A stretch of DNA of 64,000 bases from Bdellovibrionales bacterium. GTDB taxonomy: Bacteria; Bdellovibrionota; Bdellovibrionia; Bdellovibrionales; JAKFYE01. The position numbers and the translations under genes were made by a program. The notes under the pieces are model-generated. The model was given only the letters and a program-made list of their open reading frames with translations, ran no database searches and had not been told where the DNA came from. Below are positions 36,047 to 64,000 of this stretch, piece after piece. Within the stretch, counting starts at the first letter, position 1, and the number at the start of each line of letters is the position of its first letter. The DNA lies in contig OZ220494.1 in NCBI GenBank assembly GCA_965116215.1, positions 1,499,992-1,563,991 on the forward strand, written 5' to 3'.

Positions 36047-37144
36047 ATGTATCGGACTGTCCTTCAGCTTAGCTTTTTTCTATATATATTTTTGTTTTCT
36101 CTTCCTTTAGTGGCTGATCCTGCTTGTTTACCATTTTCAGAGTTTTCCCGTCGCTTCTGGGGAGCCAAATTTTTAAAAGGATATAAGCCTTTTGATTTTC
36201 GAAAGCATCCAATGACAGTTGGTGTGGAAGTTGAGCTGATTACGCCTGTAAAAGTAAAATATAGAAATGGTTCAAGAAGCTATCAAGAGCCTTTGAATCT
36301 TAATGAACTCAATTTAGAAGGAGCAACTCAGAGAGGGCAAGTGAGAGAAAGGTTAGCTCAAATTATTTATAACACGATTCAAAAAAAATTTCCTTATATT
36401 CAATTAGGGATAAAGCGAGATTATCTGCTTGGAGAATATGAATATACTGTACAATATAAACTCAATGACCGGCTATATGAATATGAAGTTAAAGAAGACA
36501 TATCAATTGAGGCCCCTCCTGTATATATTGGAGTCGAAATTGCTTCTCCAAAACTTTATAATCAGAAGGATATCAAATTATTTTATGATATTTTAAAGGA
36601 GCTTAGAGCAGAAGGAAAGGTTAAGACATCTTTTTTATCAGGAGTTCATGTGCATGTGGGTTTTCCACACGCAAACCCTCAAGAGGTTGCATTGACCTTA
36701 GCTCTTTTTTCTCAATTTGAAAAACAGATCTATACAGCCTTTTCTGTTTTGCCTTATAGAAGAACAGAATATGCTAATTTTGTAGGAGATAAAACACTTC
36801 ATTTTTTGCAACAGAAGGACATATTTACGATAAATGATTTAATTGGAATTGTAAAAGATAGGAATCAGGGTTTGAATATTAGACCACTTAAGGACGGGGA
36901 CTTTAAGACACTGGAGTTTCGTCTGTTTAATAGTTCTTTTAAATCTGCAGAGATTGATCGAATGATCAAATTTTCTCGGGCTTTTGTCAAATCTATACGT
37001 GAGAAACATCCACAATTATTAAAATTAATTTTTGAAAATAGAGATCTAGAAGCCGTCCCATTTAAAACACTTGTAGAAATCCTGGGTCTTAAAAAACAAG
37101 ATATGCTGCCCGTTGAAATTAAGCGTAGATCGGTAGCTTATTAA
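36047..37144 (+). CDS. Amidoligase-like protein (glutamine-synthetase/GCS2-like fold) with N-terminal signal peptide
   Basis: Signal-like N-terminus MYRTVLQLSFFLYIFLFSLPLVADP. Motifs TVGVEVELITP, IGVEIASPKL, GVHVHVGF and LEFRLFNSS match the carboxylate-amine ligase / putative amidoligase pattern. Confidence 0.5.
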   Translation: MYRTVLQLSFFLYIFLFSLPLVADPACLPFSEFSRRFWGAKFLKGYKPFDFRKHPMTVGVEVELITPVKVKYRNGSRSYQEPLNLNELNLEGATQRGQVRERLAQIIYNTIQKKFPYIQLGIKRDYLLGEYEYTVQYKLNDRLYEYEVKEDISIEAPPVYIGVEIASPKLYNQKDIKLFYDILKELRAEGKVKTSFLSGVHVHVGFPHANPQEVALTLALFSQFEKQIYTAFSVLPYRRTEYANFVGDKTLHFLQQKDIFTINDLIGIVKDRNQGLNIRPLKDGDFKTLEFRLFNSSFKSAEIDRMIKFSRAFVKSIREKHPQLLKLIFENRDLEAVPFKTLVEILGLKKQDMLPVEIKRRSVAY

Positions 37145-42247: not shown

Positions 42248-43051
42248 TTACATAAAAAATTTATAAAGATATAAGATAGGGGCGGCGAAGAGGAGTCCAT
42301 CAATACGATCTAAAACACCACCATGCCCGGCCATAAAATATCCGCTGTGTTTGACTTCAGCGACTCTCTTTAGGACGGACTCAAAAATATCTCCCATAGG
42401 GCTCAATATCCCCATCAGCAGTCCTAATAGGAGGGCTGTTTCCAATGGGATAAATAGCCAAAGAAGGTGATTGAGAGTAAGAAAAGCAATAACAGAGGCT
42501 AAGACTCCTCCAAGAGCACCCTCCATAGACTTATTTGGAGAAATTGTTTTGACTAAAGGGTGTTTTCCAAAAGTGCTTCCTATACAATAGGCAGTGATGT
42601 CATTAACAAAAACAGTTGTTGTCAGAAGAACAAACCACTGTAGCCCATCTTCCCATGTGAGAGGGGTTAAAATGAGTCCGCATAAATAACCCGTATAGAG
42701 AAAACCAAAGAGTCCATTTTTTGAAAATCTGAGTTTTTCCTTATTGGACCAGTGAGGATTTAGTAAAAGCGATAGACTTATAAATGATATAGAGCACAAT
42801 GCAAATAGAGAAGAAATGAATTCAGAACTATAAATTGTACATAAAGTGATAGCAAAAGAGTGAGTAACAAATAAAAGTAAAGATAGGAAAGAAGTCTTCT
42901 GTTTGAAGAGGTAGTTTAATTCCACTTGCGCTATAAAAGCAATACATAGACCAAGGATTAGAATTCCCGTTTCCTCAGCAATAAACCAGGAGAGCGTAAA
43001 TACGCCTAAAGCTATAAAAGTGGATAGAGTTCTTTTTCCTAATGCGAGCAT
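42248..43051 (-). CDS. cdsA: Phosphatidate cytidylyltransferase
   Basis: Signature SMEGALGG ... KRVAEVKHSGYFMAGHGGVLDRIDG. Confidence 0.87.
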   Translation of the reverse strand: MLALGKRTLSTFIALGVFTLSWFIAEETGILILGLCIAFIAQVELNYLFKQKTSFLSLLLFVTHSFAITLCTIYSSEFISSLFALCSISFISLSLLLNPHWSNKEKLRFSKNGLFGFLYTGYLCGLILTPLTWEDGLQWFVLLTTTVFVNDITAYCIGSTFGKHPLVKTISPNKSMEGALGGVLASVIAFLTLNHLLWLFIPLETALLLGLLMGILSPMGDIFESVLKRVAEVKHSGYFMAGHGGVLDRIDGLLFAAPILYLYKFFM

Positions 43052-43782
43052 TCAAGTTCCATAGGTTGGGTAGGTTGGGACTCTTTTCCAAAACGGCGTT
43101 CCCGGGTTTTAAATATATTTAATAAATATAAGAGGTCATGTTCTGTGAAATCAGGCCACAAGGTTTTTGTAGTAATAAATTCTGTATAAGCTGATTGCCA
43201 TAGGAGAAAATTAGATAAACGATTTTCTCCACTTGTTCGTATAATCAGATCAGGGTCAGGTATCCCAGATGTCCAAAGCTGAGAGGAAAATAAATCTTCA
43301 TTAATATCTTCAATGTTTAACTGACCCTTTTGAACGTCAGTAGCTATTCGCTTTACGGTGTCAATAATTTCCTGACGTGAGCCATAATTGAATGCAATGG
43401 TCAGTTTTAGACCTGTGTTCTGTTTAGAGGCCTCCATGACACTGGCGATTTCTTTTTGTATATCTATCGGTAATGGATCCGAGAAACCAATACATTGTAG
43501 GTTTATATTTTTTTTAACAAGGTTTTCTTTATCTCTCTTTAAATAATGTAATAAGATTTTTATAAGAGCATTCACTTCTTCTTTTGATCGCTTCCAATTT
43601 TCAGTACTAAATGCAAAAAGAGTCAGATGTTTTAATCCAATTTCAACAGCTTTTTCAACTATGCGTTTGGCGGCTTTACTTCCTCTGACATGGCCCCAGA
43701 TACGATGATGTCCTTTTTGGATAGCCCAGCGTCCGTTGCCATCCATAATAATACCTACATGTTGAGGCCATTGTGTATTCAT
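43039..43782 (-). CDS. uppS: Undecaprenyl-diphosphate synthase (isoprenyl transferase)
   Basis: HVGIIMDGNGRWA, FSTENWKR and IRTSGENRLSNFLLWQSAY. Confidence 0.92.
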   Translation of the reverse strand: MNTQWPQHVGIIMDGNGRWAIQKGHHRIWGHVRGSKAAKRIVEKAVEIGLKHLTLFAFSTENWKRSKEEVNALIKILLHYLKRDKENLVKKNINLQCIGFSDPLPIDIQKEIASVMEASKQNTGLKLTIAFNYGSRQEIIDTVKRIATDVQKGQLNIEDINEDLFSSQLWTSGIPDPDLIIRTSGENRLSNFLLWQSAYTEFITTKTLWPDFTEHDLLYLLNIFKTRERRFGKESQPTQPMELECSH

Positions 43783-43783
43783 T

Positions 43784-44347
43784 CTAAATTGTGAGAATAT
43801 CTTTCTCTTTTTTTACACCCATTTCATCTATTTGAGATATAAATGTATCGGTGAGTTTCTGTATCTTATTTTGAAAATTTTTACTGTCGTCTTCAGAAAT
43901 TTCCTTATCTTTCAATAAATGTTTGATTTTATTATTCGCTTCTTGACGATGCAATCTTATTGATACTCTTGTATCTTCAATAAGTTTTTTGACATTTTTT
44001 ACAAGCTCTTTTCGTCTTTCTTCTGTCAAGTTAGGTAGTTTGAGGCGAATGACTTTTCCATCATTAATAGGAGTCATTCCAATATCACTTTTAATAATAC
44101 TTTGTTCAATTTCTTTGAGCATTGAAATTTCCCATGGGACAATCAAAAAAGATTTTGCATCAGGACAGCTAACAGCAGCTACTTGGCTAAGGGGAGAAGG
44201 GGTTCCATAATATTCTATCTTAATAGAATCTAGTATGGAAACGTTTGCTTTTCCTGTGCGGACTTTAGAAATCTGATTTTTTAAAGAGGTTATTGATTTT
44301 TCCATACTCTTTTGTGTGTCTTTATAGATATTATCAATCATTATCAC
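43784..44347 (-). CDS. frr: Ribosome recycling factor
   Basis: [19 protein letters not shown] ... [14 protein letters not shown]. Conserved pyrH-frr order. Confidence 0.95.
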
Positions 44348-45062
44348 ATCCTCTAATCATTGTTCCTATTTTTTCGCCTAAAACAGCACGTTTTATATTG
44401 CCAGAGATGTTCAAATTAAAAATAAGGATGGGTAATTTATTTTCCATACATAAACTAATAGCTGTAGAGTCCATCACCTTTAATTGCTTTTGAAGGACAT
44501 CTATATATTTGAGTTTCTCATATTTTTGTGCAGTAGGATGATCTGTAGGGTCTTTGTCAAACACGCCATCTACCTTGGTGGCTTTAAAGATAATATCAGC
44601 GTTGATTTCCATAGCTCTGAGGGCAGCGGCTGTGTCTGTTGTGAAGTATGGATTTCCAGTTCCTGATGCAAATATGACTAGACGATCTCTTTCTAGATGT
44701 CTTATTGCGCGTCGACGAATATAGGGCTCTGCGATTTCTGCCATTTCGATAGCTGATTGAACACGTGTTTGTATACCTAAATTCTCTAGAGCTTCTTGTA
44801 AGGCCAGAGCATTAATACATGTGGCTAACATACCCATGTAATCGGAATTGGCTCTATCCATACCGTAGGTTGAAGCGGCTACTCCTCTGAAAATATTGCC
44901 ACCACCAATAACAACTCCAATTTCTAATTTTAATTGAAAAATTTCAGCAATTTCTTTTGCAATTCTTTGAATGACTTCTGGTTGTATTCCATAACCATTT
45001 TGCCCTGTGAGGGCTTCACCACTGATCTTTAATAAAATACGTTTGTAAATAGGGGTTTTCAA
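44334..45062 (-). CDS. pyrH: UMP kinase
   Basis: [18 protein letters not shown] and [16 protein letters not shown]. Confidence 0.95.
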
Positions 45063-45064
45063 TT

Positions 45065-45715
45065 TTATACCTTTAAAGCTTGAGCCACTTCTTCTGCAAA
45101 GTTCTCTGATTTTTTTTCTATTCCTTCCCCGAGTTCAAAACGAGAAAATCTGCGGATAACAATATTCTCACCAATACTGGCTATTGTTTGTTTTAACAGA
45201 TCACCTACAGTCATATCTGGATCTTTAATATACTTTTGAGTGACAAGTACATGTTCTGTTTTCCATTTTTTAATTTGTCCAGATACAATCTGATCTAAGA
45301 TCTCTTTCTTCTTTCCTTGTTCTTGTGCTTTAGATTTTAAAATTTTGATCTCTTTTTCTACTAGAGAGGGGTCTAGCTCATCGGTATGAACACATAAAGG
45401 ATTTGCTGCAGCTATGTGCATCGAGATATTTTTTACAAAATCTTTGAATTTTTCATTTTTTGCGACAAAGTCTGTTTCCGAATTGATTTCAACAAGCACT
45501 CCAATACGTCCTTCACCATGAATATAACTGGCGACTAGTCCTTCAGTTGCAATACGTCCTGCTTTTTTTGCAGCAGCACTCAATCCCTTTTTTCTGAGCC
45601 ATTCAATAGCTTTGTCTACATTGCCAGAATTTTCCATAAGGGCTTTCTTACAGTCCATCATGCCCGATCCAGTTCTTTCACGTAATTCTCTAACAACTTT
45701 TGCTGTTACAGACAT
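45065..45715 (-). CDS. tsf: Elongation factor Ts (short form)
   Basis: [22 protein letters not shown]-like N-terminus. At 216 aa it is the short EF-Ts class. Confidence 0.9.
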
Positions 45716-47505: not shown

Positions 47506-48627
47506 TTAAGTTTCTAAGCACACCTTGGCTGTTTTATTAAGATAGTAACCATTTTTTGCTCTGAAAATATATTTCGGTTTATCATAATCTGCTTCTATAA
47601 GTCTCCGTAGTCTTTTAATAGTGACATATATTTTGTTGTCATGTGATGAAGGATCATAGCTTTGATTCCAAACCTTTTCTACAATAGATTGTTTGGAAAA
47701 GACATGACCCGGCCGCTTTACAAAGAGATGTAGTAAGTCTAAAAGAATAAACTGATTTTTGAAATCAATTTTGCCCTTCTTTTTTTCAAATAAAGACTTA
47801 GTTGTGGCATTAAAAATCAAGTCATAATTATCTCCACCGACAACACCAAAGTCTTTAAGGGCTTCGTCAAGATCTTCAGAGAGGGTTTTTAAGTTTTCGG
47901 CATCTGTTAATTTCCTAGCTAGCTTGAGATAGAACCCTGCCATTTCTTTTTCACCGATGTCCTTATATGTAATTCCCATGGCATAAAGAAGTTGCAAGTA
48001 CATGAATAAATTTTTTTGAACCTTGATGCTTTCGTAGGCTTTCCAAAAAATTTCAAGAGCTTGTTCATATCGGTTGAGTTTGTAGAGCAAAAAGCCATTG
48101 AGAATTTCTGCTCCTAGCTTCAAATCTTTTAAATCTAAGGCCTGAAAAAAAATTTCGAGATTATAAATTTCACGTAATGCCTTTTCATAATGTCCTTGTT
48201 GACTATAAATAATAGCTAGAGCATGGATGGCATAAGATATGTCCTTTTTATTATTTTTCTCTAGAGCCATGGCTAAGGATTTTTGGAAGTATTCCAATCC
48301 TAAGTCCAATTGCTTTTTATAGACGGCACAGATTCCCAGTGTGTAGTACGTTTTTGCATTCAACTGAAATTTTTCTTTTAATACAAAGTCTTGTAGCGTT
48401 TCTTTTATTTTGTGAATTTCAATGTCATCTTGGCGTTCAGCATATATTCGTAAAAGTAAATTTAAGACTTTTAAATAATTATCAAAATCTTTTGCCTCAA
48501 GGAAAAGCTCTGCTGATTCGGACCCTTTTTGAATGGCTTTGGTAAAATCACAGCGATCTCTATAAAGTTCGCTAAATTCTAACAGAGAGAGTGCAGTTTC
48601 TTTTTGAGTCCTCGTGGAAGGCATCAT
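47506..48627 (-). CDS. TPR-repeat transcriptional regulator with C-terminal OmpR/PhoB-type winged helix
   Basis: N-terminal TPR-like repeats. The C-terminus VFSKQSIVEKVWNQSYDPSSHDNKIYVTIKRLRRLIE ... YIFRAKNGYYL matches trans_reg_C. No receiver domain. Confidence 0.6.
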   Translation of the reverse strand: MMPSTRTQKETALSLLEFSELYRDRCDFTKAIQKGSESAELFLEAKDFDNYLKVLNLLLRIYAERQDDIEIHKIKETLQDFVLKEKFQLNAKTYYTLGICAVYKKQLDLGLEYFQKSLAMALEKNNKKDISYAIHALAIIYSQQGHYEKALREIYNLEIFFQALDLKDLKLGAEILNGFLLYKLNRYEQALEIFWKAYESIKVQKNLFMYLQLLYAMGITYKDIGEKEMAGFYLKLARKLTDAENLKTLSEDLDEALKDFGVVGGDNYDLIFNATTKSLFEKKKGKIDFKNQFILLDLLHLFVKRPGHVFSKQSIVEKVWNQSYDPSSHDNKIYVTIKRLRRLIEADYDKPKYIFRAKNGYYLNKTAKVCLET

Positions 48628-55266: not shown

Positions 55267-56139
55267 TTACTTTTTTTGTAAACTCTGAATATCATCTATA
55301 GATAGGCCAGTGATTTTTTGGATGGTTGAGGTGTCAAATTTTTCTTTTAGCATTTTCATGGCGACTTTTTTTAAGCCTTCCTCTAAGCCTTCTTCACGGG
55401 CAAAATCTTTTTCTGCCATCTGGTCACGAAGAAACTTTATTCGAGCCTCTTCTTCCATTCTGAGTTCCTCATCTTTTGATAGGCGTTTTAGATGGACTAC
55501 GGCTTCTTTCATATCTTGATTCCTGTTTGATAATACTTGTAGTTCATTGGGTTTTATTTCGTTTGAATGCTTTAAAGTATAGCACCATTGATCTCGTATA
55601 TCAATTAAATCCTCAATCTTCTTGTTAAACTTCTTTAATTCTACAAATATAATTTTTAAATCATTATTGAAACAGAAATGTGGAGGTTGATCTGAGAGTA
55701 ACGAAAAGCAAGTGACAAAGTCTGTAGACTCTTTGAATACTTTAAAATCAGTAGTAAAAATGAGTGAATAGGTGGGGGAAACCTTCTTATAGGGCTCTGA
55801 GACTGTTAAATCTTCAGTGTAGAGTTTGGCCCAATAAAAAAGGACTCTGGATAAGAAATCTTTCTTTTGAGATGCTTGCATTTCTACATTGATTTTCTCT
55901 TTATTGTTTAATCTTAATTTTAAATCTAGAATAATCTGCTTTTTTTCTTTTGTATCTGGAAGGTTTTGAGAATTAAGAATATCGATACGCTCGATCTTTT
56001 GATCAGGGAGTAGGGGCAAAAAGGCTTTAAGCAAGGAGAGGAGAACTTTTTTATTTTTTGTAAAATAGATCTTAAACATGAGATCTTGAGTGAGCTTAAT
56101 GTAGGAATTTTCTGATGGCTTTATATGTTTTTTTCTCAT
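55267..56139 (-). CDS. Rpn-family recombination-promoting nuclease / PD-(D/E)XK putative transposase
   Basis: N-terminal PDDEXK_2 pattern LTQDLMFKIYFTKNKKVLLSLLKAFLP ... IILDLKLRL..EKINVEMQ. The C-terminal helical tail ends ...TIQKITGLSIDDIQSL, typical of this family. Confidence 0.75.
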   Translation of the reverse strand: MRKKHIKPSENSYIKLTQDLMFKIYFTKNKKVLLSLLKAFLPLLPDQKIERIDILNSQNLPDTKEKKQIILDLKLRLNNKEKINVEMQASQKKDFLSRVLFYWAKLYTEDLTVSEPYKKVSPTYSLIFTTDFKVFKESTDFVTCFSLLSDQPPHFCFNNDLKIIFVELKKFNKKIEDLIDIRDQWCYTLKHSNEIKPNELQVLSNRNQDMKEAVVHLKRLSKDEELRMEEEARIKFLRDQMAEKDFAREEGLEEGLKKVAMKMLKEKFDTSTIQKITGLSIDDIQSLQKK

Positions 56140-56944: not shown

Positions 56945-57212
56945 ATTGATATCTAGGGTAATGTTATAGAGATGCAGATGAATATCTATTCCATTTTGTT
57001 CTATCGACTCCGAATATCTTAGAATGTAAATATAAATACGGACATAATCCAGTGGCTATAGAGAATCACTTCCTATCTTTGAGTCAAGATAAGGACCTTA
57101 CTTTGATGCAGTTATTGAAATTGTCTTACTTTGCTTTTTCCATATGGAAGGAAAATTCTTTTGATAGAGGATCTATGATTGTTTTTACTTCAATTCCAAT
57201 ATCTTAAACATA

Positions 57213-57321
57213 AAGCAAGTATATAAAGAGATTAAGATCTCGAGAGAGGTAGCAGGGTCCACGAAAGTACACCACTTGGTTGAAGCAAGTATATAAAGAG
57301 AGATAAGATCTCGACAGAGAG
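57213..57321. repeat. Two imperfect direct repeats of 36 and 39 bp separated by 34 bp (70-bp period)
   Basis: AAGCAAGTATATAAAGAGA-TTAAGATCTCGAGAGAG (57213..57248) and AAGCAAGTATATAAAGAGAGATAAGATCTCGACAGAGAG (57283..57321). The unique spacer is gtagcagggtccacgaaagtacaccacttggttg. Confidence 0.8.
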
Positions 57322-57580
57322 TCTGTTCTCTCTCTCGTATTGAAACAATTGAAAAAGAGATTGCGACTGGAATTTGTTTTATATTGAGATGTAAAATGGA
57401 AATTCAGTCATTGCTCTAAAGTATAAAAATATAAAAGCCGACAACGAGGACTGTTATAACTGTCAAATTCAATTTAAACAATCAGCCTATCGAGATCTTT
57501 TGTGCCAGTTTGTACATATTCTGTATTTTATTAACAGAATACAGAGAAATGGTTTGTTTTTATCCAAAGAGGGGGAATTG

Positions 57581-59401
57581 ATGAAAATACTTTTGGGGCT
57601 TTGGGAGAAACATCCGATGTCAGTTATTTTAATAGGTGTCTTCTTTTTAATTACTGTTGGTTTTCTGATCCGCAAGTGGCGAGTTTTATATAAAGAGACA
57701 AAGCGTTTAAAAAATGATATTTATGACTCTACTCATACACTCCCTCAGAGTGATCATAGGAATACCTTTGCACAAGATTATGGTCAAAAGATCGATCCAA
57801 GGCTGAGTGAGGAGAGGTGTGTTTTTAGTCATTTGTGGAAAGAATTTACTGAGCAATTGATAAAGCCAACATCCAATAGTAAAGAGCAGGTTTTTCAAAA
57901 CAGTATCCGACCTCAGAAATTTTTTACATTAGAAGCTCTTTGTAAGAAAAAGGGAGGGCTCAATTTAAAATCTATGGAATCTGTTTCTGGGATATTAGTT
58001 GCACTAGGAGTTTTGGGAACTTTTTTGGGACTAACTCTATCTTTATTATCCCTATTGGATCCTTCTGGAATTAAGGTCGATGATTCCACTATTAAGAATC
58101 TTCTTTCAGGTGCCAGTGTTGCCTTTATCACTTCTGTTGTGGGGCTTTTTTGCAGTTTGGTATTTAGTGTTGTATTCGATCGTAAAATATTTCAAGTGGA
58201 GTGTAGCCTGGAGGATTTTAACTCTAGGCTGGAAAAAAGCTGTAAGTTTATAACGGAGGAGCATCTGTTAAATGAACACTTGGCGCAACTGAATAAACAT
58301 TTGGGGAGTATGGATGAGGCAATAGCATTAAAGGTTGGCGATCAAATAGAGTGTATGGGCGAAAGACTTCGGGGAGAGATTTCAAAGGGCCATCAAAATA
58401 TATCAGAAAAGTTTCTCTCTGATATTGTGAATAAAATGACTTCAGGTCTGGGAGAGTTTTCTAAAAAACAGATGGCCACTATAGATCACACCTTAACGGT
58501 TCTATCAGAGAACCTTCCTTCTTTATTATCAGATCTTAAAAATGTACAAAAAGAAAGCGAAAGCCAAGTGAAAGAAGTTCTAAGTGATATAGCCGTTAGT
58601 GCTAGGGATAGCCAGCAGTCAATAAATACATCTCTTGCCGAGACAGTTTCAAATATGAAAACTGAATTTGAGGGTATAATTGATAACTTGAAGCAGGGTA
58701 TGAGTGAAACTCTTTCTCATTCTTCAGGTGAGATGAAAGAAGTCATATCTTCTCTTGGTCAGGTGAATCAAAAAATTTTAAAGCGGGCCAATGAGTCACA
58801 TGCCGTTTATACAAGATCGTTCAATGAAACAGCTCATAAACTCCATTCTTTTGTGAGTCGTCTGGAAGAAGCCCTATCTGAAATCAATGGCACTACAAGT
58901 GAGAATATTAGAGAGGCGATTGACCATTTTTATAAAGCGGCAGAAAAACAAGAAGAGATTGCTGAAAAAAATCAACAGCACATTCAGTCCTTAAATAATT
59001 TAACGGAGTCTTTGCAACCTCTTCCCCATTCTTTATCGAAGATCACTCAAGACTTTTCTGAGCTTGTTCAACAAATCAATAACTCTAATGAAAAATTGCA
59101 GACTTCGTGGAGCAATTATGAATCTCGATTTGAAAATGTTGATAAATCTGCAAAGGAAGTATTTGAGAAAATAACAGAGGGTTTAAAGGATCTGTCAAAT
59201 AAGAGTGCTAATTATATTCATGAGTTAAACGGAAAAACGAGTGAAATATCGGGGCATTTTTCTGGAGCTGTTGAAGATTTAAGGGAGTCTATTGACGACT
59301 TTTCAAATAAACATCCTGAATATAATAAATTCTTTCATTCGGTTGAAAAGCTAAGCAAGGCTATTGAGGATCTTTCAAGTCATAGAGAAAAAGCGAGTTA
59401 G
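57581..59401 (+). CDS. zorA: ZorA-like protein: MotA/ExbB/TolQ-type channel domain with a helical tail of about 400 aa
   Basis: Start chosen at ATG 57581 (AGAGGGGG 5 nt upstream). Three TM helices carry the MotA/ExbB signatures SGILVALGVLGTFLGL and ASVAFITSVVGLFCSL. Residues from about 200 to 606 have no hydrophobic segments and are E/K/S/L/N/Q-rich (coiled-coil-like). It is the first gene of a four-gene operon. Confidence 0.78.
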   Translation: MKILLGLWEKHPMSVILIGVFFLITVGFLIRKWRVLYKETKRLKNDIYDSTHTLPQSDHRNTFAQDYGQKIDPRLSEERCVFSHLWKEFTEQLIKPTSNSKEQVFQNSIRPQKFFTLEALCKKKGGLNLKSMESVSGILVALGVLGTFLGLTLSLLSLLDPSGIKVDDSTIKNLLSGASVAFITSVVGLFCSLVFSVVFDRKIFQVECSLEDFNSRLEKSCKFITEEHLLNEHLAQLNKHLGSMDEAIALKVGDQIECMGERLRGEISKGHQNISEKFLSDIVNKMTSGLGEFSKKQMATIDHTLTVLSENLPSLLSDLKNVQKESESQVKEVLSDIAVSARDSQQSINTSLAETVSNMKTEFEGIIDNLKQGMSETLSHSSGEMKEVISSLGQVNQKILKRANESHAVYTRSFNETAHKLHSFVSRLEEALSEINGTTSENIREAIDHFYKAAEKQEEIAEKNQQHIQSLNNLTESLQPLPHSLSKITQDFSELVQQINNSNEKLQTSWSNYESRFENVDKSAKEVFEKITEGLKDLSNKSANYIHELNGKTSEISGHFSGAVEDLRESIDDFSNKHPEYNKFFHSVEKLSKAIEDLSSHREKAS

Positions 59402-59415
59402 GAAGGAGTGTTTGC

Positions 59416-60318
59416 ATGAAGGGTCTATCTCAATACAGCCTTTGTTTTAGTGATGTCATGATGGGACTTTTGTTTGTTTTTATATTACTTCTTGTAAAAT
59501 TTATGCTGGAGTCTCAAGAGGCTAAAAAAAACTTTGAGAGTCGTAGAGAAAAATTATTAAATCCTCTGAAGAGCAGAGCAGAATTGTTGTTGGAAATAAA
59601 AAATGCAATGAAAAAGAAGGGAATAGAAGTTCAGATCGATCAAGAAAATGGTGTGCTCACTTTAGAGAATATGAATTACTTTGATAAAGGCCGTTATACA
59701 TTGAGTGCTAAAGGGAAAAGGCAATTCACAAAGATCAAGGAGATTCTAGCGCAAAATATCATATGTTATTCTGATTTAGAGACATTGAAAAAGCAGGATT
59801 CAAGGATAGAGAACCGCTCGGTCTGGAAGTCTTATTATAAGCAGTGTCCTAAGAGCAAAAATGCCTTGATTGATTCTATTTTGATTGAAGGCCATGCGGA
59901 CCCTACACCTATTGGTCCTACCTTAAAGCGCAAGGAGAACATTCAAACCAATATAGACTTGGCCATGAAAAGATCTCAGACGATCTTTTATTTTTTAACA
60001 GAGTATAAAGAGTCTAAAGCAAAGGGTAATTATCTCTATTATTTATTAAACAAAAGGGGGAATTCCTTATTTGGTATCACATCTTATGGGAGTTTAAGAC
60101 CGAAGCATTCAGGAAAATCAAGGGATCGTTCTCCCCCTCCCCCTCCCCCTTCTCCTTTTTCTGCCTCAAAGGCCACAGATTATGATCGTGTTCCCTCCTC
60201 TGAGGGCCATGAGGATCGGCGTATTGATATGCGGTTTATTATGGCTCAACCAGAAAAATTAAAGTTAGAACTCAGGAAAATTATAGAAAATAGGAGTCAT
60301 ACAGAGTATGCAAAGTAA
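59416..60318 (+). CDS. zorB: ZorB-like protein: MotB-type TM/plug plus OmpA-like peptidoglycan-binding domain
   Basis: N-terminal CFSDVMMGLLFVFILLL (conserved Asp before the TM, as in MotB/ExbD-type stators). OmpA-like blocks ILIEGHADPTPIG, NIDLAMKRSQTIFYFL and RRIDMRF. It starts 14 nt after zorA. Confidence 0.8.
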   Translation: MKGLSQYSLCFSDVMMGLLFVFILLLVKFMLESQEAKKNFESRREKLLNPLKSRAELLLEIKNAMKKKGIEVQIDQENGVLTLENMNYFDKGRYTLSAKGKRQFTKIKEILAQNIICYSDLETLKKQDSRIENRSVWKSYYKQCPKSKNALIDSILIEGHADPTPIGPTLKRKENIQTNIDLAMKRSQTIFYFLTEYKESKAKGNYLYYLLNKRGNSLFGITSYGSLRPKHSGKSRDRSPPPPPPSPFSASKATDYDRVPSSEGHEDRRIDMRFIMAQPEKLKLELRKIIENRSHTEYAK

Positions 60319-61789
60319 ATTTTTTTTAAAAGACTTTTTAAAAAGTGAAATAAAGAGAAAAAATTCAAATTCTGTTTGGGATAATCTCTCTGAAAAGATA
60401 GCCCCCTATAAAAATGAAATAGAGAGGCATATCGCAAAACTGAGTCATTGTGAACTCAAAGAACGACCCACTTTGAGTGTAAAAGATATCTATGATGGGT
60501 ATCAAAAAATCTGGAATGAACATCAAACCATTAGGGGCGTTTCATCCAGAGAGTTAAAGGACTATTTTTTTATTTTATTTTCTAATCCTCAAGAGGGAGT
60601 TTCTACAGGTTTGTATGACGGCCCAGAGCAGTTTGATGATTTTTTGAATGTTATTGTTGAAAAAGGTCGGCAGAGTTATTTGAAAAGACTTATTTCAGAA
60701 CTATTTTATAATTATCCTAAAGATGAAGAATTTTTTGGGAGATTAGAAAAAGTATTTACCCACTTAGACAGAAAGAGGAGAAGTCATCAGTCTTTATTCA
60801 AAGCTCATATACAATTTCGTCTGATTGGGAAAGAGGGTCCTTCTCATATAGCAAGAGCTATATTAGATCCACAAAAGGAATTGTCTTCTGATGTTCTCTC
60901 TAAGATTTGGTTAAAAGAGCGACATCTCTTAGGAGGAATCGGGAAAGCTATTGTGAAAGAGCTTTGTAATCTGGCCTCAGAGCCTATTGAGCGAGAAGAT
61001 AAAGCCGTCTTAGATCGTTTTTTAGACTATCTCTCCAACAGTCGTGCTGTTTCCGCTAGGGAGGAAATCTCCAATTCAGATATGGGACCCACAGCCCGAT
61101 TTACTGATCCCAAACCTATTGTCTCTGTTTTATTGAGGCCCTTTGAAAATCAGATGCCCTCAAGGTCAATACAAAATACCATCACACAATTTCTAGATCG
61201 ATATGTTGGGGATCCACGTTTCAAGTCTGAAAAATGGATGGCCATGGGTAAGGAAAAGGAGATTTTTTTAAGATGGAAAATCGGTGAAACTATAGAAGAT
61301 TTTTTATCACTCCTTTCTTATACTGCCAATCAGGATCCTATGGCTCAGCGAATGTGGGGTTATCGTAAAGAATTTATAAAGGCATACTGGGAGGCTGGCC
61401 ATATAAGAAAAGCTTGGATTGTTTTGGGAAGGAAGGATTATGACAATCGATTAAAGTTTTTAAAAAGAGACTTTAATGGTTATGGAAAAATTATTAAAGG
61501 GGCACAGAGTAATCACTCTTGTTTACTTCTTCAAATTGGTGATCTGATTCTCTCTGAATGGAATTATAATGGAAAGGTAAGGATTTGGAATGAAAATGAA
61601 GAAGATAAGCATTCCCCTCCTTTCTATAAAGGAGAATATTCAAAAGAGGATTTGGTGAGTCCCTCCCAAAAAAAATTTGTTCATAGACAGGATAAACGAT
61701 ACAGTTGGCAGAAAAAACTGAGTTGGTATATTGAGGAAAACACTGGCATTGAGTGCCCTGATGTCCTTTTGAGAAAAATCTATATATAG
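60308..61789 (+). CDS. zorC: ZorC-position protein (expected EH-signature domain protein)
   Basis: 493-aa soluble protein that overlaps zorB by 11 nt and ends 13 nt before the SNF2 gene. The call rests mainly on operon position. The C-terminal block NHSCLLLQIGDLILSEWNYNGKVRIW is where an EH-signature would be expected, but I cannot verify the domain by eye. Confidence 0.6.
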   Translation: MQSKFFLKDFLKSEIKRKNSNSVWDNLSEKIAPYKNEIERHIAKLSHCELKERPTLSVKDIYDGYQKIWNEHQTIRGVSSRELKDYFFILFSNPQEGVSTGLYDGPEQFDDFLNVIVEKGRQSYLKRLISELFYNYPKDEEFFGRLEKVFTHLDRKRRSHQSLFKAHIQFRLIGKEGPSHIARAILDPQKELSSDVLSKIWLKERHLLGGIGKAIVKELCNLASEPIEREDKAVLDRFLDYLSNSRAVSAREEISNSDMGPTARFTDPKPIVSVLLRPFENQMPSRSIQNTITQFLDRYVGDPRFKSEKWMAMGKEKEIFLRWKIGETIEDFLSLLSYTANQDPMAQRMWGYRKEFIKAYWEAGHIRKAWIVLGRKDYDNRLKFLKRDFNGYGKIIKGAQSNHSCLLLQIGDLILSEWNYNGKVRIWNENEEDKHSPPFYKGEYSKEDLVSPSQKKFVHRQDKRYSWQKKLSWYIEENTGIECPDVLLRKIYI

Positions 61790-61802
61790 TTTGGGAGTTT
61801 AT

Positions 61803-64000
61803 ATGGAATTTAAAGTCAACGATGATTATATAATATTTCAGTTTAAAAAAAAGGAACTCACAGACGATATCAAGGGATTGTTATCTACATTAGAGGCTAA
61901 ATACGAAAAGGGTTTGGCCTATGTATCACATGCTCGTCTCGCCGATAGCAATGCTCATGAGATAAAAAAATTAGGACTTCCCGCTGTTTACCCACACCGT
62001 TTAGAGATAAAAACAAGAGGGCGACCCATAACCCCTGCTTTTTCTTCAGAGCAAATATATTCTGATGAACAATCTAGAAAGTTTTATCAAGTCAAAAGAG
62101 TCGGTGTTATTTTAGAATTAGATGGTAAAAAATTTACTTTAACAAACCCTCACTTTCTTTTTTTAGAAAATATAGAAAAGCTGTCTTCTCATATTAAAAG
62201 TCCCGGGGAGCGTTTGCGCCTTTGGTCTGAAGTTATAAAGACAGCTCCAAAAGAATGTGTATCAGCCAATAAAGAATTGCTCGATTTTTCTTTTATTCAA
62301 GCCAATCAATTTTGTTTAGATAAGAAAGTTCTCTTTGGGCAGGAGTTTAAAATTGTTCCGGATCTGATTTATACAAAAAATGAAGGCGATGAAGAATGCT
62401 CTATAAGTCATCAACTTCCAAAGGGCATTTCGCAAGAATTTAAACAGGGATTTTTGAAATCAGATGGTGTTGATCCCTATTATAAAATTGGCCCCTGCTA
62501 TATACAGATTTCAAAACCCTTGAGGATTTGTTTACAAATTATAAAAAAAATAAACGAAGAGCCTTTGGAAAATAGACGGGCCTTCTATATGTCTCCTATG
62601 GAGAGAATTAAAAATGAGCTTTCTGAGGATTTACCAGAAGATTTGATAGAAGATATATTTTTTGAAACGAAACAATTTATAAGTGATCGCATTTCTCATA
62701 TTGGAAAGTGGGTTCCAAAGTTGGGAGTTTATGTTGACCCTGAGAGTAACAACCCTTGGTTTCCAAAAGAGAATATTGTGTCCAAAATCGGAAACAGCCT
62801 CTTTCACTTTAATCCTGATGATTTGGATAAAGTTATCACAGATATGGAAGAGAAAAAGGAAAAAGGGGAAGACGTTTTTATTTATAAAGATCAAGCCGTT
62901 CCTATTAATGATGAAAGCATTTCAGAACTTAAAAGGGTTCGGAGGAATATCATTAGAGAAGGTGAAAATCTAACCAGTCTATCTGATGAATCAAAACAAA
63001 AGAAAAAATTATCTAGATTAGTGGCTATTATAAAGGATAATATTGATAATACCAAAGTTTATGAGTCTAGAAGACGTGAGCCCAGGGATTTGCAAAAAGG
63101 GATTCCCTTAGAGTTAAAGGATAAATTCAATAAGTATCCACATCAAGAAGAGGGCTTGTTTTGGCTGCAAGAAAATTTTATATGTGGAGTCCCCGGAGGG
63201 CTTTTGGCAGATGATATGGGGCTTGGAAAGACGTTTCAATCCCTTGCCTTTTTATATTGGTATAAGCAGTGTGTTTCAGATGCAAAACCTGCATTGATTG
63301 TGGCCCCCACAGGTCTTTTAAAGAACTGGCAAGATGAGTGTGAGGAACATTTGTTACAACATGGAGGACTAGGAAGGAAATATAAGGCCTATGGGGAATC
63401 TTTTAGAAGGGATAGAAAAAACTCCGTATTATCAGTCATCGAAGAAATGAAAAAAGCAGATTGGGTTTTGACAACTTATGAAGCGGTTAGGGATCATCAT
63501 AAGAATTTTTTTATTAAAGTATCATGGGGTATTGTCATATTTGATGAAATCCAAAAAATAAAAAATCCTAACTCATTAATGACAGATGCGGCAAAGGCTC
63601 TTGCGAGTGATTTTTCTATCGGTCTGACAGGAACTCCTATTGAGAATAGTTTTGTCGACTTATGGTGTATATCAGATTGTTTACGTCCAAAAATTCTTGG
63701 TTTATTAAAGGATTTTCATAATAAATATATAAGAGGTAAAGGAAATGGAGGTGAAATTCAAGAAAAGTTTAATCAGAACACCCCTCCCTTTATGTTAAGA
63801 AGAATGAAAAGTGACATACTTCATGATTTGCCAAAGAAAAACATTATTGTAAAAAAGGTAAATATGACAGATGAACAAAAGGAGGTCTATTCCGAAGTAC
63901 TGAGAAAAACAAAAAACAAAGAATATTCAAATAGTCTTCAGGCTCTCACATTACTCAGGCGATTTTCGATTTATCTTCAAGATTGCGTTGAAGACTCCAA
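61803..64000 (+). CDS. zorD: ZorD-like SNF2-family helicase (3' end beyond window; ORF absent from supplied track)
   Basis: My own translation from ATG 61803 (GGGAG at 61793..61797) is open to nt 64000. SNF2 motifs are YPHQEEGLFWLQENF, GGLLADDMGLGKTFQSLAFL (motif I, about 63195..63250), IVAPTGLLKNWQDE, VIFDEIQKIKN (motif II, about 63535..63565) and GLTGTPIENSFVDLW (motif III). Confidence 0.82.
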   Translation, partial: MEFKVNDDYIIFQFKKKELTDDIKGLLSTLEAKYEKGLAYVSHARLADSNAHEIKKLGLPAVYPHRLEIKTRGRPITPAFSSEQIYSDEQSRKFYQVKRVGVILELDGKKFTLTNPHFLFLENIEKLSSHIKSPGERLRLWSEVIKTAPKECVSANKELLDFSFIQANQFCLDKKVLFGQEFKIVPDLIYTKNEGDEECSISHQLPKGISQEFKQGFLKSDGVDPYYKIGPCYIQISKPLRICLQIIKKINEEPLENRRAFYMSPMERIKNELSEDLPEDLIEDIFFETKQFISDRISHIGKWVPKLGVYVDPESNNPWFPKENIVSKIGNSLFHFNPDDLDKVITDMEEKKEKGEDVFIYKDQAVPINDESISELKRVRRNIIREGENLTSLSDESKQKKKLSRLVAIIKDNIDNTKVYESRRREPRDLQKGIPLELKDKFNKYPHQEEGLFWLQENFICGVPGGLLADDMGLGKTFQSLAFLYWYKQCVSDAKPALIVAPTGLLKNWQDECEEHLLQHGGLGRKYKAYGESFRRDRKNSVLSVIEEMKKADWVLTTYEAVRDHHKNFFIKVSWGIVIFDEIQKIKNPNSLMTDAAKALASDFSIGLTGTPIENSFVDLWCISDCLRPKILGLLKDFHNKYIRGKGNGGEIQEKFNQNTPPFMLRRMKSDILHDLPKKNIIVKKVNMTDEQKEVYSEVLRKTKNKEYSNSLQALTLLRRFSIYLQDCVEDS

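What the first reader, a model, noticed from the sequence alone, without database searches (positions are those of the whole stretch)
57581..64000. Four-gene MotA-like / MotB-like / ZorC-position / SNF2-helicase operon: a type I Zorya (ZorABCD) anti-phage defence system
Seen in the sequence: four same-strand genes are packed with a 14-nt gap, an 11-nt overlap and a 13-nt gap. Gene 1 has three TM helices with MotA/ExbB/TolQ channel signatures (GILVALGVLGTFLGL, AFITSVVGLF) and then about 400 aa of helical tail. Gene 2 has the MotB-type N-terminus with a conserved Asp (CFSDVMMGLLFVF) and an OmpA-like peptidoglycan-binding domain (ILIEGHADPTPIG ... RRIDMRF). Gene 3 is a 493-aa soluble protein. Gene 4, found by my own translation because it is not in the ORF track, carries SNF2 helicase motifs I, Ia, II and III. 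No flagellar, Tol-Pal or TonB/ExbD genes are nearby, so this is not a motility or import stator. Established knowledge: this domain order (MotA_ExbB; MotB_plug/OmpA; EH_Signature; SNF2 helicase) defines type I Zorya, first reported in the 2018 systematic defence-island screen by Doron and colleagues. In that model ZorAB is thought to act as a proton-driven envelope-anchored sensor motor, with ZorC and ZorD as DNA-targeting effectors. Inference: this locus is a functional Zorya in an AT-rich lineage that may be predatory or Bdellovibrio-like, at the edge of an accessory region. I cannot claim a new family. The divergent features are the compact ZorA, the Pro-rich insert in ZorB and the poorly recognisable ZorC, each noted separately.
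Basis: partly seen in the sequence, partly recalled or inferred. Interest (0 to 1): 0.92.

Follow-up and report, generated by a model that had tools for sequence, protein, structure and literature searches.

The report
Divergent type I Zorya phage-defence operon
This is a complete but very divergent copy of the known four-gene Zorya type I anti-phage system in a small-genome Bdellovibrio-like bacterium; its one unusual feature is an HNH nuclease domain on the end of the ZorD helicase.

Summary
Four + strand genes lie at 57581-59401, 59416-60318, 60308-61789 and 61803 to beyond 64000, separated by a 14-nt gap, an 11-nt overlap and a 13-nt gap.

They match PADLOC ZorA1 (8e-43), ZorB1 (4e-46), ZorC1 (9e-75) and ZorD1 (2e-231 for the full protein). 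AlphaFold models of genes 3 and 4 have E. coli ZorC (8R68) and ZorD (8QY7) as their best PDB fold matches. The residues shown experimentally to be essential in E. coli Zorya are conserved in all four proteins. The type I Zorya reading is therefore supported, and the Bdellovibrio-like host guess fits the Lon protease relatives.

- ZorC is easy to recognise with profiles (Pfam EH_Signature, 121 bits).
- No MotB plug domain is detected.
- The visible flank is housekeeping genes with the same GC content, not an accessory region.
- The roughly 600-aa ZorA and the short ZorC are normal for this clade.

One feature lay outside the window. The full ZorD (1003 aa) ends in an HNH nuclease domain, with invariant catalytic residues across 36 relatives. 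E. coli ZorD lacks it, and no PADLOC ZorD model aligns to it.

Verdict: a new member of a known kind, of low to moderate interest.

The parts
56945..57580 (+). 636-nt sufE-zorA intergenic region, presumed to hold the promoter. It contains a pair of ~37-nt direct repeats (57213-57249 and 57283-57321, period 70).
   Evidence: Sequence read. The repeats are unique in the window (0 of 100 shuffles reach 2 matches) and are listed. They are absent from the syntenic intergenic region of L002. No promoter stands out above chance. Their role is unknown.
57581..59401 (+). zorA: 606-aa MotA/ExbB-like inner-membrane subunit. TM1 is at 57617-57676, TM2 at 57980-58057 and TM3 at 58106-58177. The cytoplasmic coiled-coil tail is at about 58250-59398 (residues 224-606).
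   Evidence: PADLOC ZorA1 8e-43. Pfam MotA_ExbB 27.2 bits against a 22.9 cut-off. Matches E. coli ZorA 8QYD/8QYY, with Thr147, Ser184->Ser185 and Glu86/Glu89->Glu88/Glu91 conserved. Hydropathy and 3.55-residue periodicity.
59416..60318 (+). zorB: 300-aa MotB-like subunit. It has one TM helix with Asp13 (59452-59454) and an OmpA-like peptidoglycan-binding domain carrying the N179-x2-L182-x3-R186 motif. A Pro-rich insert spans residues 232-262 (60109-60201).
   Evidence: PADLOC ZorB1 4e-46. Shewanella ZorB 8VVN aligns with Asp24 = Asp13. Alignment with the Klebsiella ZorB1 and with clade relatives.
60308..61789 (+). zorC: 493-aa soluble EH-signature protein. Glu417 is at 61556-61558 and His459 at 61682-61684. 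It consists of the core domain only.
   Evidence: Pfam EH_Signature 121 bits and PADLOC ZorC1 9e-75. E417, H459, D302, R304, W310 and W467 are invariant in 35 homologues. The AF2 model has pLDDT 86, and its only significant PDB fold match is ZorC 8R68.
61803..64000 (+). zorD, first 732 of 1003 codons. It contains a ZorD-type N-terminal domain and SNF2 lobe 1 (GLGKT at 63219-63233, DEIQ at 63543-63554). Helicase_C (residues 743-855) and the HNH nuclease (residues 948-991) lie beyond the window.
   Evidence: Translation. The full protein P0001 is 100% identical over the 732 aa. PADLOC ZorD1 2e-231. Pfam SNF2, Helicase_C and HNH. E. coli ZorD 8QY7 matches at 2.6e-90 by sequence and 3.6e-48 by fold over 981 columns.

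Best explanation
The locus is an intact type I Zorya (zorABCD) anti-phage defence operon. It sits in the chromosome of a small-genome (about 1.8 Mb), AT-rich Bdellovibrionota-like bacterium.

Proposed mechanism, by homology with the E. coli system:
- ZorA and ZorB should form a ZorA5B2 proton-driven inner-membrane motor.
- The ZorB peptidoglycan-binding domain engages the cell wall when a phage perturbs the envelope.
- Proton flow through ZorB Asp13, past the ZorA Thr147/Ser185 filter, turns ZorA and its pentameric coiled-coil tail. Scaling from the E. coli tail gives a length of about 50-55 nm.
- This recruits and activates the DNA-binding protein ZorC and the SNF2 translocase/nuclease ZorD near the membrane.
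- ZorC and ZorD then destroy the injected phage DNA.

In this clade ZorD also carries a C-terminal HNH endonuclease. I infer that this domain performs or assists the DNA cutting.

Shown here: gene content and order, family membership, conservation of the essential residues, and the predicted folds. Inferred: stoichiometry, proton drive, the trigger, the phage-resistance phenotype and the role of the HNH domain.
For: - Profile matches of all four proteins to ZorA1, ZorB1, ZorC1 and ZorD1, plus Pfam MotA_ExbB, EH_Signature, SNF2, Helicase_C and HNH.
- Canonical same-strand, tightly packed zorABCD order.
- Residues essential in E. coli Zorya I (PMC11946911) are conserved. These are ZorB Asp; ZorA Thr147/Ser184 and Glu86/Glu89; the ZorB N-x2-L-x3-R peptidoglycan motif; ZorC Glu/His; and ZorD Walker A, DE(A/I)Q and Glu651 = Glu512.
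- The ZorA tail of 384 aa has a strong 3.55-residue periodicity.
- The ZorC model matches 8R68 as the only PDB hit below 1e-3. The ZorD model matches 8QY7 over 981 columns, including the N-terminal domain.
- The same four-gene operon with HNH-ZorD is intact in L001, L002, L005 and L007; L008 is cut by the contig end within zorA. The ZorD proteins in these loci are 33-71% identical to the one here.
- In L005, L007 and L008 the operon sits beside integrases; L007 and L008 also carry restriction-modification and abortive-infection-type genes.
- HNH residues C948, C951, D960, H961, N977, C982, C985 and N986 are invariant in 36 sequences.
Against: - No experiment exists for this or any close relative.
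- Pairwise similarity to the characterised enterobacterial system is very low: ZorA 20%, ZorB and ZorC not significant by BLASTP, ZorD 33%.
- None of the four proteins reaches NCBIfam's curated Zorya cut-offs.
- ZorC lacks the C-terminal globular domain that E. coli ZorC needs for DNA binding.
- The ZorA tail is about 124 residues shorter than in E. coli, where every truncation tested abolished defence.
- The ZorB cytoplasmic N-terminus is 13 residues shorter, so the Met1/Phe2 tail plug may not exist here.
- In this genome the visible flank is housekeeping genes rather than a defence island.
Confidence: 0.9

Rival explanations
1. Genes 1 and 2 form a motility or envelope stator, such as a MotAB flagellar stator, an AglRS gliding motor (known in Bdellovibrio), or TolQR/ExbBD. 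Genes 3 and 4 would then be unrelated neighbours.
For: ZorA has weak matches to TolQ structures (E about 5e-4) and to Pfam MotA_ExbB. Bdellovibrio uses TolQR-like AglRS gliding motors (PMC12505986).
Against: Twenty ZorA-specific models outscore any generic match. The 384-aa coiled-coil tail is a Zorya hallmark that MotA, TolQ and ExbB lack. The genes overlap or abut zorC and zorD, and the four genes travel together in five other loci. No flagellar, Tol-Pal or TonB genes were found among the ORFs scanned upstream.
Confidence: 0.02
2. The operon is a resident relic. It is still open-reading but no longer an effective defence, or it has been re-purposed (for example, envelope-stress-coupled DNA processing). 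It is chromosomally fixed next to sufE with host-like composition.
For: GC equals the genome background. The sufE-zorA junction is shared with a relative whose ZorD is 71% identical (L002). The visible neighbours are housekeeping genes.
Against: All four ORFs are intact. The catalytic and structural residues are invariant across 35-36 homologues that are only 23-71% identical, which indicates purifying selection on function. In other relatives the operon lies in typical defence or mobile contexts.
Confidence: 0.06
3. Gene 4 belongs to another SNF2-based system, such as Dpd (DpdE), DISARM (DrmD) or a phospholipase D/helicase system, rather than to Zorya.
For: DpdE and DrmD models also match the helicase core (best DpdE 5e-91, DrmD 8e-26).
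Against: The ZorD1 models score far higher (2e-231) and extend through the ZorD-specific N-terminal domain (residues 34-929). The fold match to 8QY7 covers 981 columns. No dpd or drm partner genes were seen in the scanned ORFs or the operon.
Confidence: 0.01

Closest known systems
E. coli type I Zorya, EcZorI (Hu et al., Nature 2025, PMC11946911; PDB 8QYD ZorAB, 8R68 ZorC, 8QY7 ZorD). The near-identically sized Klebsiella plasmid system L006 is a second reference.
   Same: It shares the zorABCD order, a 3-TM ZorA with a long helical tail, and a ZorB with a TM Asp and a linker-less peptidoglycan-binding domain. ZorC has the EH-signature core, and ZorD has the specific N-terminal domain plus the SNF2 core. 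All mutationally essential residues that I could map are conserved.
   Different: - ZorA is 606 aa against 729 aa, so the tail is about 124 residues shorter.
- ZorB is 300 aa against 246 aa, with two inserts (one Pro-rich) and a cytoplasmic N-terminus 13 residues shorter.
- ZorC is 493 aa against 560 aa and lacks the linker and C-terminal globular domain.
- ZorD is 1003 aa against 1080 aa, with a shorter N-terminal domain and an added C-terminal HNH domain that EcZorD lacks.
- Pairwise identity is 20% or not significant, except for the ZorD core at 33%.
Shewanella sp. ANA-3 type I Zorya (Mariano et al., Nat Commun 2025, PMC11890865; PDB 8VVN)
   Same: The ZorB N-terminal and TM region aligns at 2e-10, with Asp24 equal to Asp13 here. 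The proposed 5:2 motor model is the same.
   Different: That paper, following Doron 2018, describes ZorD as carrying an Mrr-like nuclease. The nuclease domain here is HNH.
Type II Zorya effector ZorE (HNH endonuclease)
   Same: An HNH nuclease acts as the DNA-cutting module downstream of a ZorAB motor.
   Different: Here the HNH is fused to a type I SNF2 ZorD and ZorC is present. No ZorE model is among the 25 best PADLOC matches listed for the HNH tail; Septu PtuB-type HNH models lead the list (5e-9).
Mrr-type ZorD proteins of most other type I Zorya systems
   Same: They have the same ZorD N-terminal domain plus SNF2 core, with a C-terminal nuclease add-on.
   Different: The nuclease families differ. 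Of the 120 best ZorD homologues listed, 41 carry PF01844 (HNH), 46 carry PF04471 (Mrr_cat) and 33 carry neither.

Membership tests
Zorya type I (Doron 2018 / PADLOC definition) | Four genes zorA-zorB-zorC-zorD on one strand, in that order | tested here: met
   Coordinates and junctions. Each gene's best PADLOC hit is the corresponding type I model.
Zorya type I | ZorA: a MotA/ExbB-type 3-TM channel subunit with a long C-terminal helical tail | tested here: met
   PADLOC ZorA1 8e-43 and Pfam MotA_ExbB 27.2 bits, above the 22.9 cut-off. Three TM segments and a 384-aa tail with 3.55-residue periodicity. Matches 8QYD.
Zorya type I | ZorB: a single TM helix with the universally conserved Asp | tested here: met
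   Asp13 lies in the TM segment and aligns to Shewanella ZorB Asp24.
Zorya type I | ZorB: an OmpA-like peptidoglycan-binding domain joined to the TM helix without a MotB plug or linker | tested here: inconclusive
   PADLOC ZorB1 models align along most of the protein (4e-46) and the N179/L182/R186 motif is present. Pfam OmpA is below its cut-off (22.6 against 27.2 bits). No structure model was made. No MotB_plug hit was obtained.
Zorya type I | ZorC: an EH_Signature domain with the Glu/His pair | tested here: met
   PF15611 at 121 bits against a 27.5 cut-off. E417 and H459 are invariant. E417 aligns to E400 of the Klebsiella ZorC. Fold match to 8R68 with probability 1.00.
Zorya type I | ZorD: an SNF2-family helicase with intact ATPase motifs and the ZorD-type N-terminal domain | tested here: met
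   PF00176 at 175 bits, plus Helicase_C. GLGKT, DEIQ and Glu512 are conserved. PADLOC ZorD1 2e-231 over residues 34-929. 8QY7 fold match at E = 3.6e-48.
Zorya type I | ZorD: an Mrr-like nuclease domain, as in the original description | tested here: not met
   PF04471 is absent. The C-terminus is PF01844 HNH instead. This feature is also absent from the experimentally validated E. coli ZorD, so it is not strictly defining.
Zorya type I | Confers phage resistance that requires all four genes and the proton-motive force | not testable with these tools
   Needs plaque and EOP assays and mutants.
Zorya type I | ZorA5B2 stoichiometry | not tested
   Would need a multimer prediction or cryo-EM.
NCBIfam equivalogs ZorA1 (NF041794), ZorB1 (NF041788), ZorC and ZorD (NF041790), the narrow enterobacterial-type families | Whole-protein score above the curated cut-off | tested here: not met
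   ZorA1 scores 45 bits against 750, ZorB1 16 against 400, ZorC has no hit, and ZorD scores 377 against 1500. The broader antiphage_ZorA_1 subfamily scores 159 against 190. The locus is therefore not a member of these narrow equivalog families. It would probably not be named Zorya by NCBI's pipeline.
Flagellar stator MotAB | MotB plug and linker, flagellar gene context, and a short MotA cytoplasmic domain | tested here: not met
   No plug hit. There is a 384-aa tail. No flagellar genes were found among the ORFs scanned.

The most novel reading that the evidence does not exclude
The window belongs to a coherent, undescribed sub-lineage of type I Zorya. Its features are a ZorA of about 600 aa, a ZorB with a short N-terminus, a core-only ZorC and an HNH-tailed ZorD. 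I saw at least 36 full-length ZorD sequences of this kind, mostly on contigs of 1.3-2.9 Mb.

In this sub-lineage, phage DNA would be cut by a dedicated HNH endonuclease carried on the SNF2 translocase. That differs from the ill-defined nuclease activity of the helicase core reported for E. coli ZorD. It would link the type I (ZorCD) and type II (ZorE HNH) effector logics. It would also give a cleaner system for asking which part of ZorD cuts DNA.
Probability: 0.45. Interest if true: 0.45.

Novelty: new member of a known kind. Interest (0 to 1): 0.3.

Why it matters
Zorya is already well characterised in E. coli, so finding another copy changes little. Three modest points follow from this one.

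1. It extends type I Zorya to small-genome Bdellovibrionota-like bacteria. The sequences are so divergent that NCBI's curated models do not reach their naming cut-offs.

2. The residues conserved between this copy and E. coli, at 20% identity or less, single out a minimal set. These are the ZorB Asp, the ZorA Thr/Ser filter and Ca-site glutamates, the ZorC Glu/His network and the ZorD ATPase motifs. They are likely the true mechanistic core.

3. The invariant HNH tail on ZorD, the missing ZorC C-terminal domain and the 25% shorter ZorA tail are natural variants of features that were essential in E. coli. They could be used to test which requirements of the published model are general.

Tried and rejected
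- Exact look-ups of ZorC, ZorB, SufE and the full ZorD in the contig index all failed. Exact DNA scans of the genome and metagenome collections found nothing. The source contig and the sequence downstream of zorD therefore could not be recovered. Only the full ZorD and ZorC proteins were found (P0001, P0242).
- A genome-contig scan with ZorD returned one irrelevant Lachnospiraceae helicase. The host lineage therefore rests on named Lon homologues only.
- Sequence searches of ZorC against the PDB, both single-sequence and with a 35-sequence profile, did not reach E. coli ZorC. Only the fold comparison did.
- Rfam and tRNA scans of the window were empty. The promoter and terminator scans were at chance level.
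- I considered that the two 37-nt repeats upstream of zorA might be a mini CRISPR-like array or an operator. They differ by an indel, occur only twice, and are absent from the syntenic relative, so I left them unexplained.
- I considered whether the short ZorC is unusual. It is not: most of the 150 best representatives of 1175 ZorC-family clusters are 430-490 aa.
- I considered whether the HNH tail is ZorE-derived. No ZorE model is among the 25 best PADLOC matches listed; PtuB-type HNH models lead.
- L004 looked like a ZorC plus HNH-ZorD pair without ZorAB, but its 483-aa neighbour does not align to ZorC.

Full report
OBSERVATION

The ORF list shows three tightly packed + strand ORFs at 57500/57581-59401, 59416-60318 and 60308-61789. 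Translation from 61803 gives a fourth frame that stays open for 732 codons to the end of the window. The junctions are exactly as reported: a 14-nt gap, an 11-nt overlap and a 13-nt gap. Each ATG is preceded by a Shine-Dalgarno-like motif (GAGGGGG, GGAAGGAG, TAGGAG, GGGAG). That supports ATG 57581 as the zorA start rather than the mechanical TTG at 57500.

Hydropathy analysis finds three TM segments in gene 1, one in gene 2 and none in genes 3 and 4. The last 384 residues of gene 1 contain four prolines. They show a hydrophobic periodicity of 3.55 residues, with power 151 against 50 +/- 10 (maximum 83) in 200 shuffles. This is the signature of an amphipathic or coiled-coil helix.

IDENTITY

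Against PADLOC-DB the four proteins hit ZorA1 (8e-43), ZorB1 (4e-46), ZorC1 (9e-75) and ZorD1 (4e-153 for the window fragment, 2e-231 for the full protein). Pfam gives:
- MotA_ExbB at 27.2 bits (cut-off 22.9);
- OmpA at 22.6 bits (below the 27.2 cut-off);
- EH_Signature at 121 bits (cut-off 27.5);
- SNF2-rel_dom at 175 bits.

That test is passed.

The full-length ZorD of this very genome was recovered from the protein collection. It is P0001, 1003 aa, 100% identical over the 732 window codons, on a 1,824,586-bp contig. The exact ZorC was recovered as P0242.

STRUCTURAL AND RESIDUE-LEVEL COMPARISON WITH THE CHARACTERISED SYSTEMS

Hu et al. (PMC11946911) showed the following for E. coli Zorya I.
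- ZorA5B2 is a proton-driven motor with a tail of about 70 nm (ZorA residues 223-729).
- Defence needs ZorB Asp26, the ZorA Thr147/Ser184 filter, the Glu86/Glu89 Ca site, and ZorB peptidoglycan-binding residues Tyr151/Asn152/Leu155/Arg159.
- It also needs ZorC Glu400/His443, and the ZorD DEAQ box and Glu651.

The corresponding residues here are as follows.
- ZorA aligns to 8QYD/8QYY with Thr147, Ser185 and Glu88/Glu91 conserved.
- ZorB Asp13 aligns to Asp24 of Shewanella ZorB, 8VVN.
- ZorB keeps N179-x2-L182-x3-R186.
- ZorC Glu417 aligns to Glu400 of the Klebsiella reference ZorC. Glu417, His459, Asp302, Arg304, Trp310 and Trp467 are invariant in a 35-sequence alignment.
- ZorD keeps GLGKT, DEIQ and Glu512, which equals Glu651.

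An AlphaFold2 model of ZorC has mean pLDDT 86.4. Its only PDB match below E = 1e-3 is 8R68, E. coli ZorC (probability 1.00, 434 columns, 13% identity). The ZorD model has pLDDT 78.8. Its best match is 8QY7, E. coli ZorD, at E = 3.6e-48 over 981 columns. That is twenty orders of magnitude ahead of generic SNF2 remodellers, so the ZorD-specific N-terminal domain is shared.

HOW DIVERGENT IT IS

The annotated Klebsiella plasmid Zorya I (L006) has ZorA 729, ZorB 246, ZorC 560 and ZorD 1082 aa. BLASTP against it gives:
- ZorA 20% identity (1e-14);
- ZorB nothing significant;
- ZorC E = 0.62;
- ZorD 33% over the helicase core.

None of the four proteins reaches NCBIfam's curated cut-offs for Zorya proteins. 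Consistent with that, none of these proteins carries a source-given name in the collection.

The tail is about 384 against 507 residues, so about 53 nm by proportional scaling (my inference). It is nevertheless normal for the clade: ZorA is 581-606 aa in L001, L002, L005 and L007. It also falls within the 487-727 length range of the PADLOC ZorA1 models.

The Pro-rich insert of ZorB (residues 232-262) is a variable loop before the last strand of the peptidoglycan-binding domain. It is shared in degenerate form with L002 and absent in L001, L005 and Klebsiella.

ZorC ends where the E. coli core ends (His + 35), so it lacks the linker and the C-terminal globular domain that E. coli ZorC needs for DNA binding. 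This short form is the common one, however. Most of the 150 best representatives among 1175 ZorC-family clusters are 430-490 aa, with alignments running to their C-termini.

THE FEATURE THE WINDOW HIDES

ZorD continues beyond the window with Helicase_C (743-855) and then a C-terminal HNH endonuclease domain (PF01844, residues 948-991, 8e-8).
- E. coli ZorD stops right after the SNF2 core; the alignment ends at our residue 899 and its residue 1065 of 1080.
- No PADLOC ZorD1 model aligns past our residue 944.
- No plasmid-borne ZorD listed covers the tail (the listed matches end at residue 911 or earlier).
- In a 36-sequence alignment spanning 33-71% identity, C948, C951, D960, H961, K963, P964, N977, C982, C985 and N986 are invariant (five loci are shown). 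The domain is therefore under selection.
- Of the 120 best ZorD homologues listed, 41 carry HNH, 46 carry Mrr_cat and 33 carry neither.
- The literature I could search attributes an Mrr-like nuclease to ZorD and HNH to the type II effector ZorE (PMC11890865). I found no description of an HNH-ZorD.
- The 25 best PADLOC matches listed for the tail are led by Septu PtuB-type HNH models and include no ZorE model.

CONTEXT AND HOST

The nearest named Lon homologues (71-75% identity) are from Bdellovibrionales/Bdellovibrionota MAGs.

Upstream of the operon the ORFs I scanned include lon, clpX, clpP, pepA, sufE, rpsB and rseP-type genes and other housekeeping genes. A PD-(D/E)XK transposase-like gene lies at 55267-56139. 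I did not scan the ORFs at 42248-45715. There are no tRNA genes or Rfam hits in the window.

Operon GC (0.358) equals the rest of the window (0.360). The closest relative, L002 (ZorD 71% identical), has the same sufE-zorA junction and a housekeeping gshA immediately downstream.

Other relatives carry the same operon in different places. L001 has an unrelated context. L005, L007 and L008 have it next to integrases. L007 and L008 also carry restriction-modification, RloB/AAA_21 and Vsr-methylase genes. The system therefore behaves like a mobile defence module across the clade. In this genome, on the visible side, it sits among core genes.

MECHANISM

The best-supported explanation transfers the E. 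coli model.
1. A ZorA5B2 proton motor senses envelope perturbation through the ZorB peptidoglycan-binding domain.
2. Rotation of the coiled-coil tail recruits and activates ZorC (DNA binding) and ZorD (ATP-dependent translocase/nuclease).
3. These degrade the incoming phage DNA close to the membrane.

Shown here are the gene set, family membership, conserved essential residues and folds. Everything dynamic is inferred. For this clade I further infer that the HNH domain supplies or augments the cleavage.

RIVALS

A motility or Tol-type stator, a Dpd/DISARM helicase and a decayed relic are each disfavoured by the evidence listed in the Rival explanations section.

VERDICT

This is a correctly identified type I Zorya. 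It is a new, highly divergent member of a known kind with a noteworthy but modest domain variant (HNH-ZorD).

Noticed in passing
window 57213-57249 and 57283-57321: Two ~37-nt direct repeats lie 70 nt apart in the 636-nt sufE-zorA intergenic region. The first 19 nt are identical (AAGCAAGTATATAAAGAGA), followed by TAAGATCTCGAGAGAG in one copy and TAAGATCTCGACAGAG in the other. They are unique in the window and absent from the syntenic region of L002. They could be an operator, a promoter element or a mobile-element scar.
   Followed up: partly
beyond the window end; P0001 residues 948-991: ZorD carries a C-terminal HNH endonuclease. E. coli ZorD lacks it and no PADLOC ZorD model aligns to it. 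Its catalytic residues are invariant in 36 homologues.
   Followed up: yes
window 55267-56139 (-): A PD-(D/E)XK (PDDEXK_2, Rpn/transposase-like) gene sits between pepA and sufE. It is the only mobile-element-like gene among the ORFs I scanned near the operon.
   Followed up: no
window 59416-59454: The ZorB cytoplasmic N-terminus has only 12 residues before the TM Asp, against 25 in E. coli. The Met1/Phe2 plug of the ZorA tail entrance described for E. coli may therefore not be conserved. L001 and L002 share the short form.
   Followed up: partly
L004 811-1836 and 6553-11087: An HNH-tailed ZorD-like helicase (31% identical) occurs without adjacent zorAB and beside a 483-aa protein that does not align to ZorC. 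A truncated Helicase_C+HNH fragment lies next to a transposase. This is a possible orphan or decayed effector.
   Followed up: partly
L005, L007, L008: In relatives, the same HNH-ZorD zorABCD operon sits next to integrases. L005 also has ScoMcrA-like and WYL genes. L007 and L008 have type I/IIG restriction-modification, RloB/AAA_21, SocA_Panacea and Vsr plus DNA methylase genes. These are classical defence-island contexts, unlike the visible flank here.
   Followed up: partly
window 57581-64000: None of the four proteins reaches NCBIfam's curated Zorya cut-offs, and they carry no source-given names in the collection. Such divergent Zorya systems probably go unnamed in standard genome annotation.
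   Followed up: yes
window 47506-48627 (-) and 36047-37144 (+): A TPR protein fused to a Trans_reg_C (OmpR-type) DNA-binding domain, and an Amidoligase_2 gene, sit among housekeeping genes. They are unrelated to the finding.
   Followed up: no
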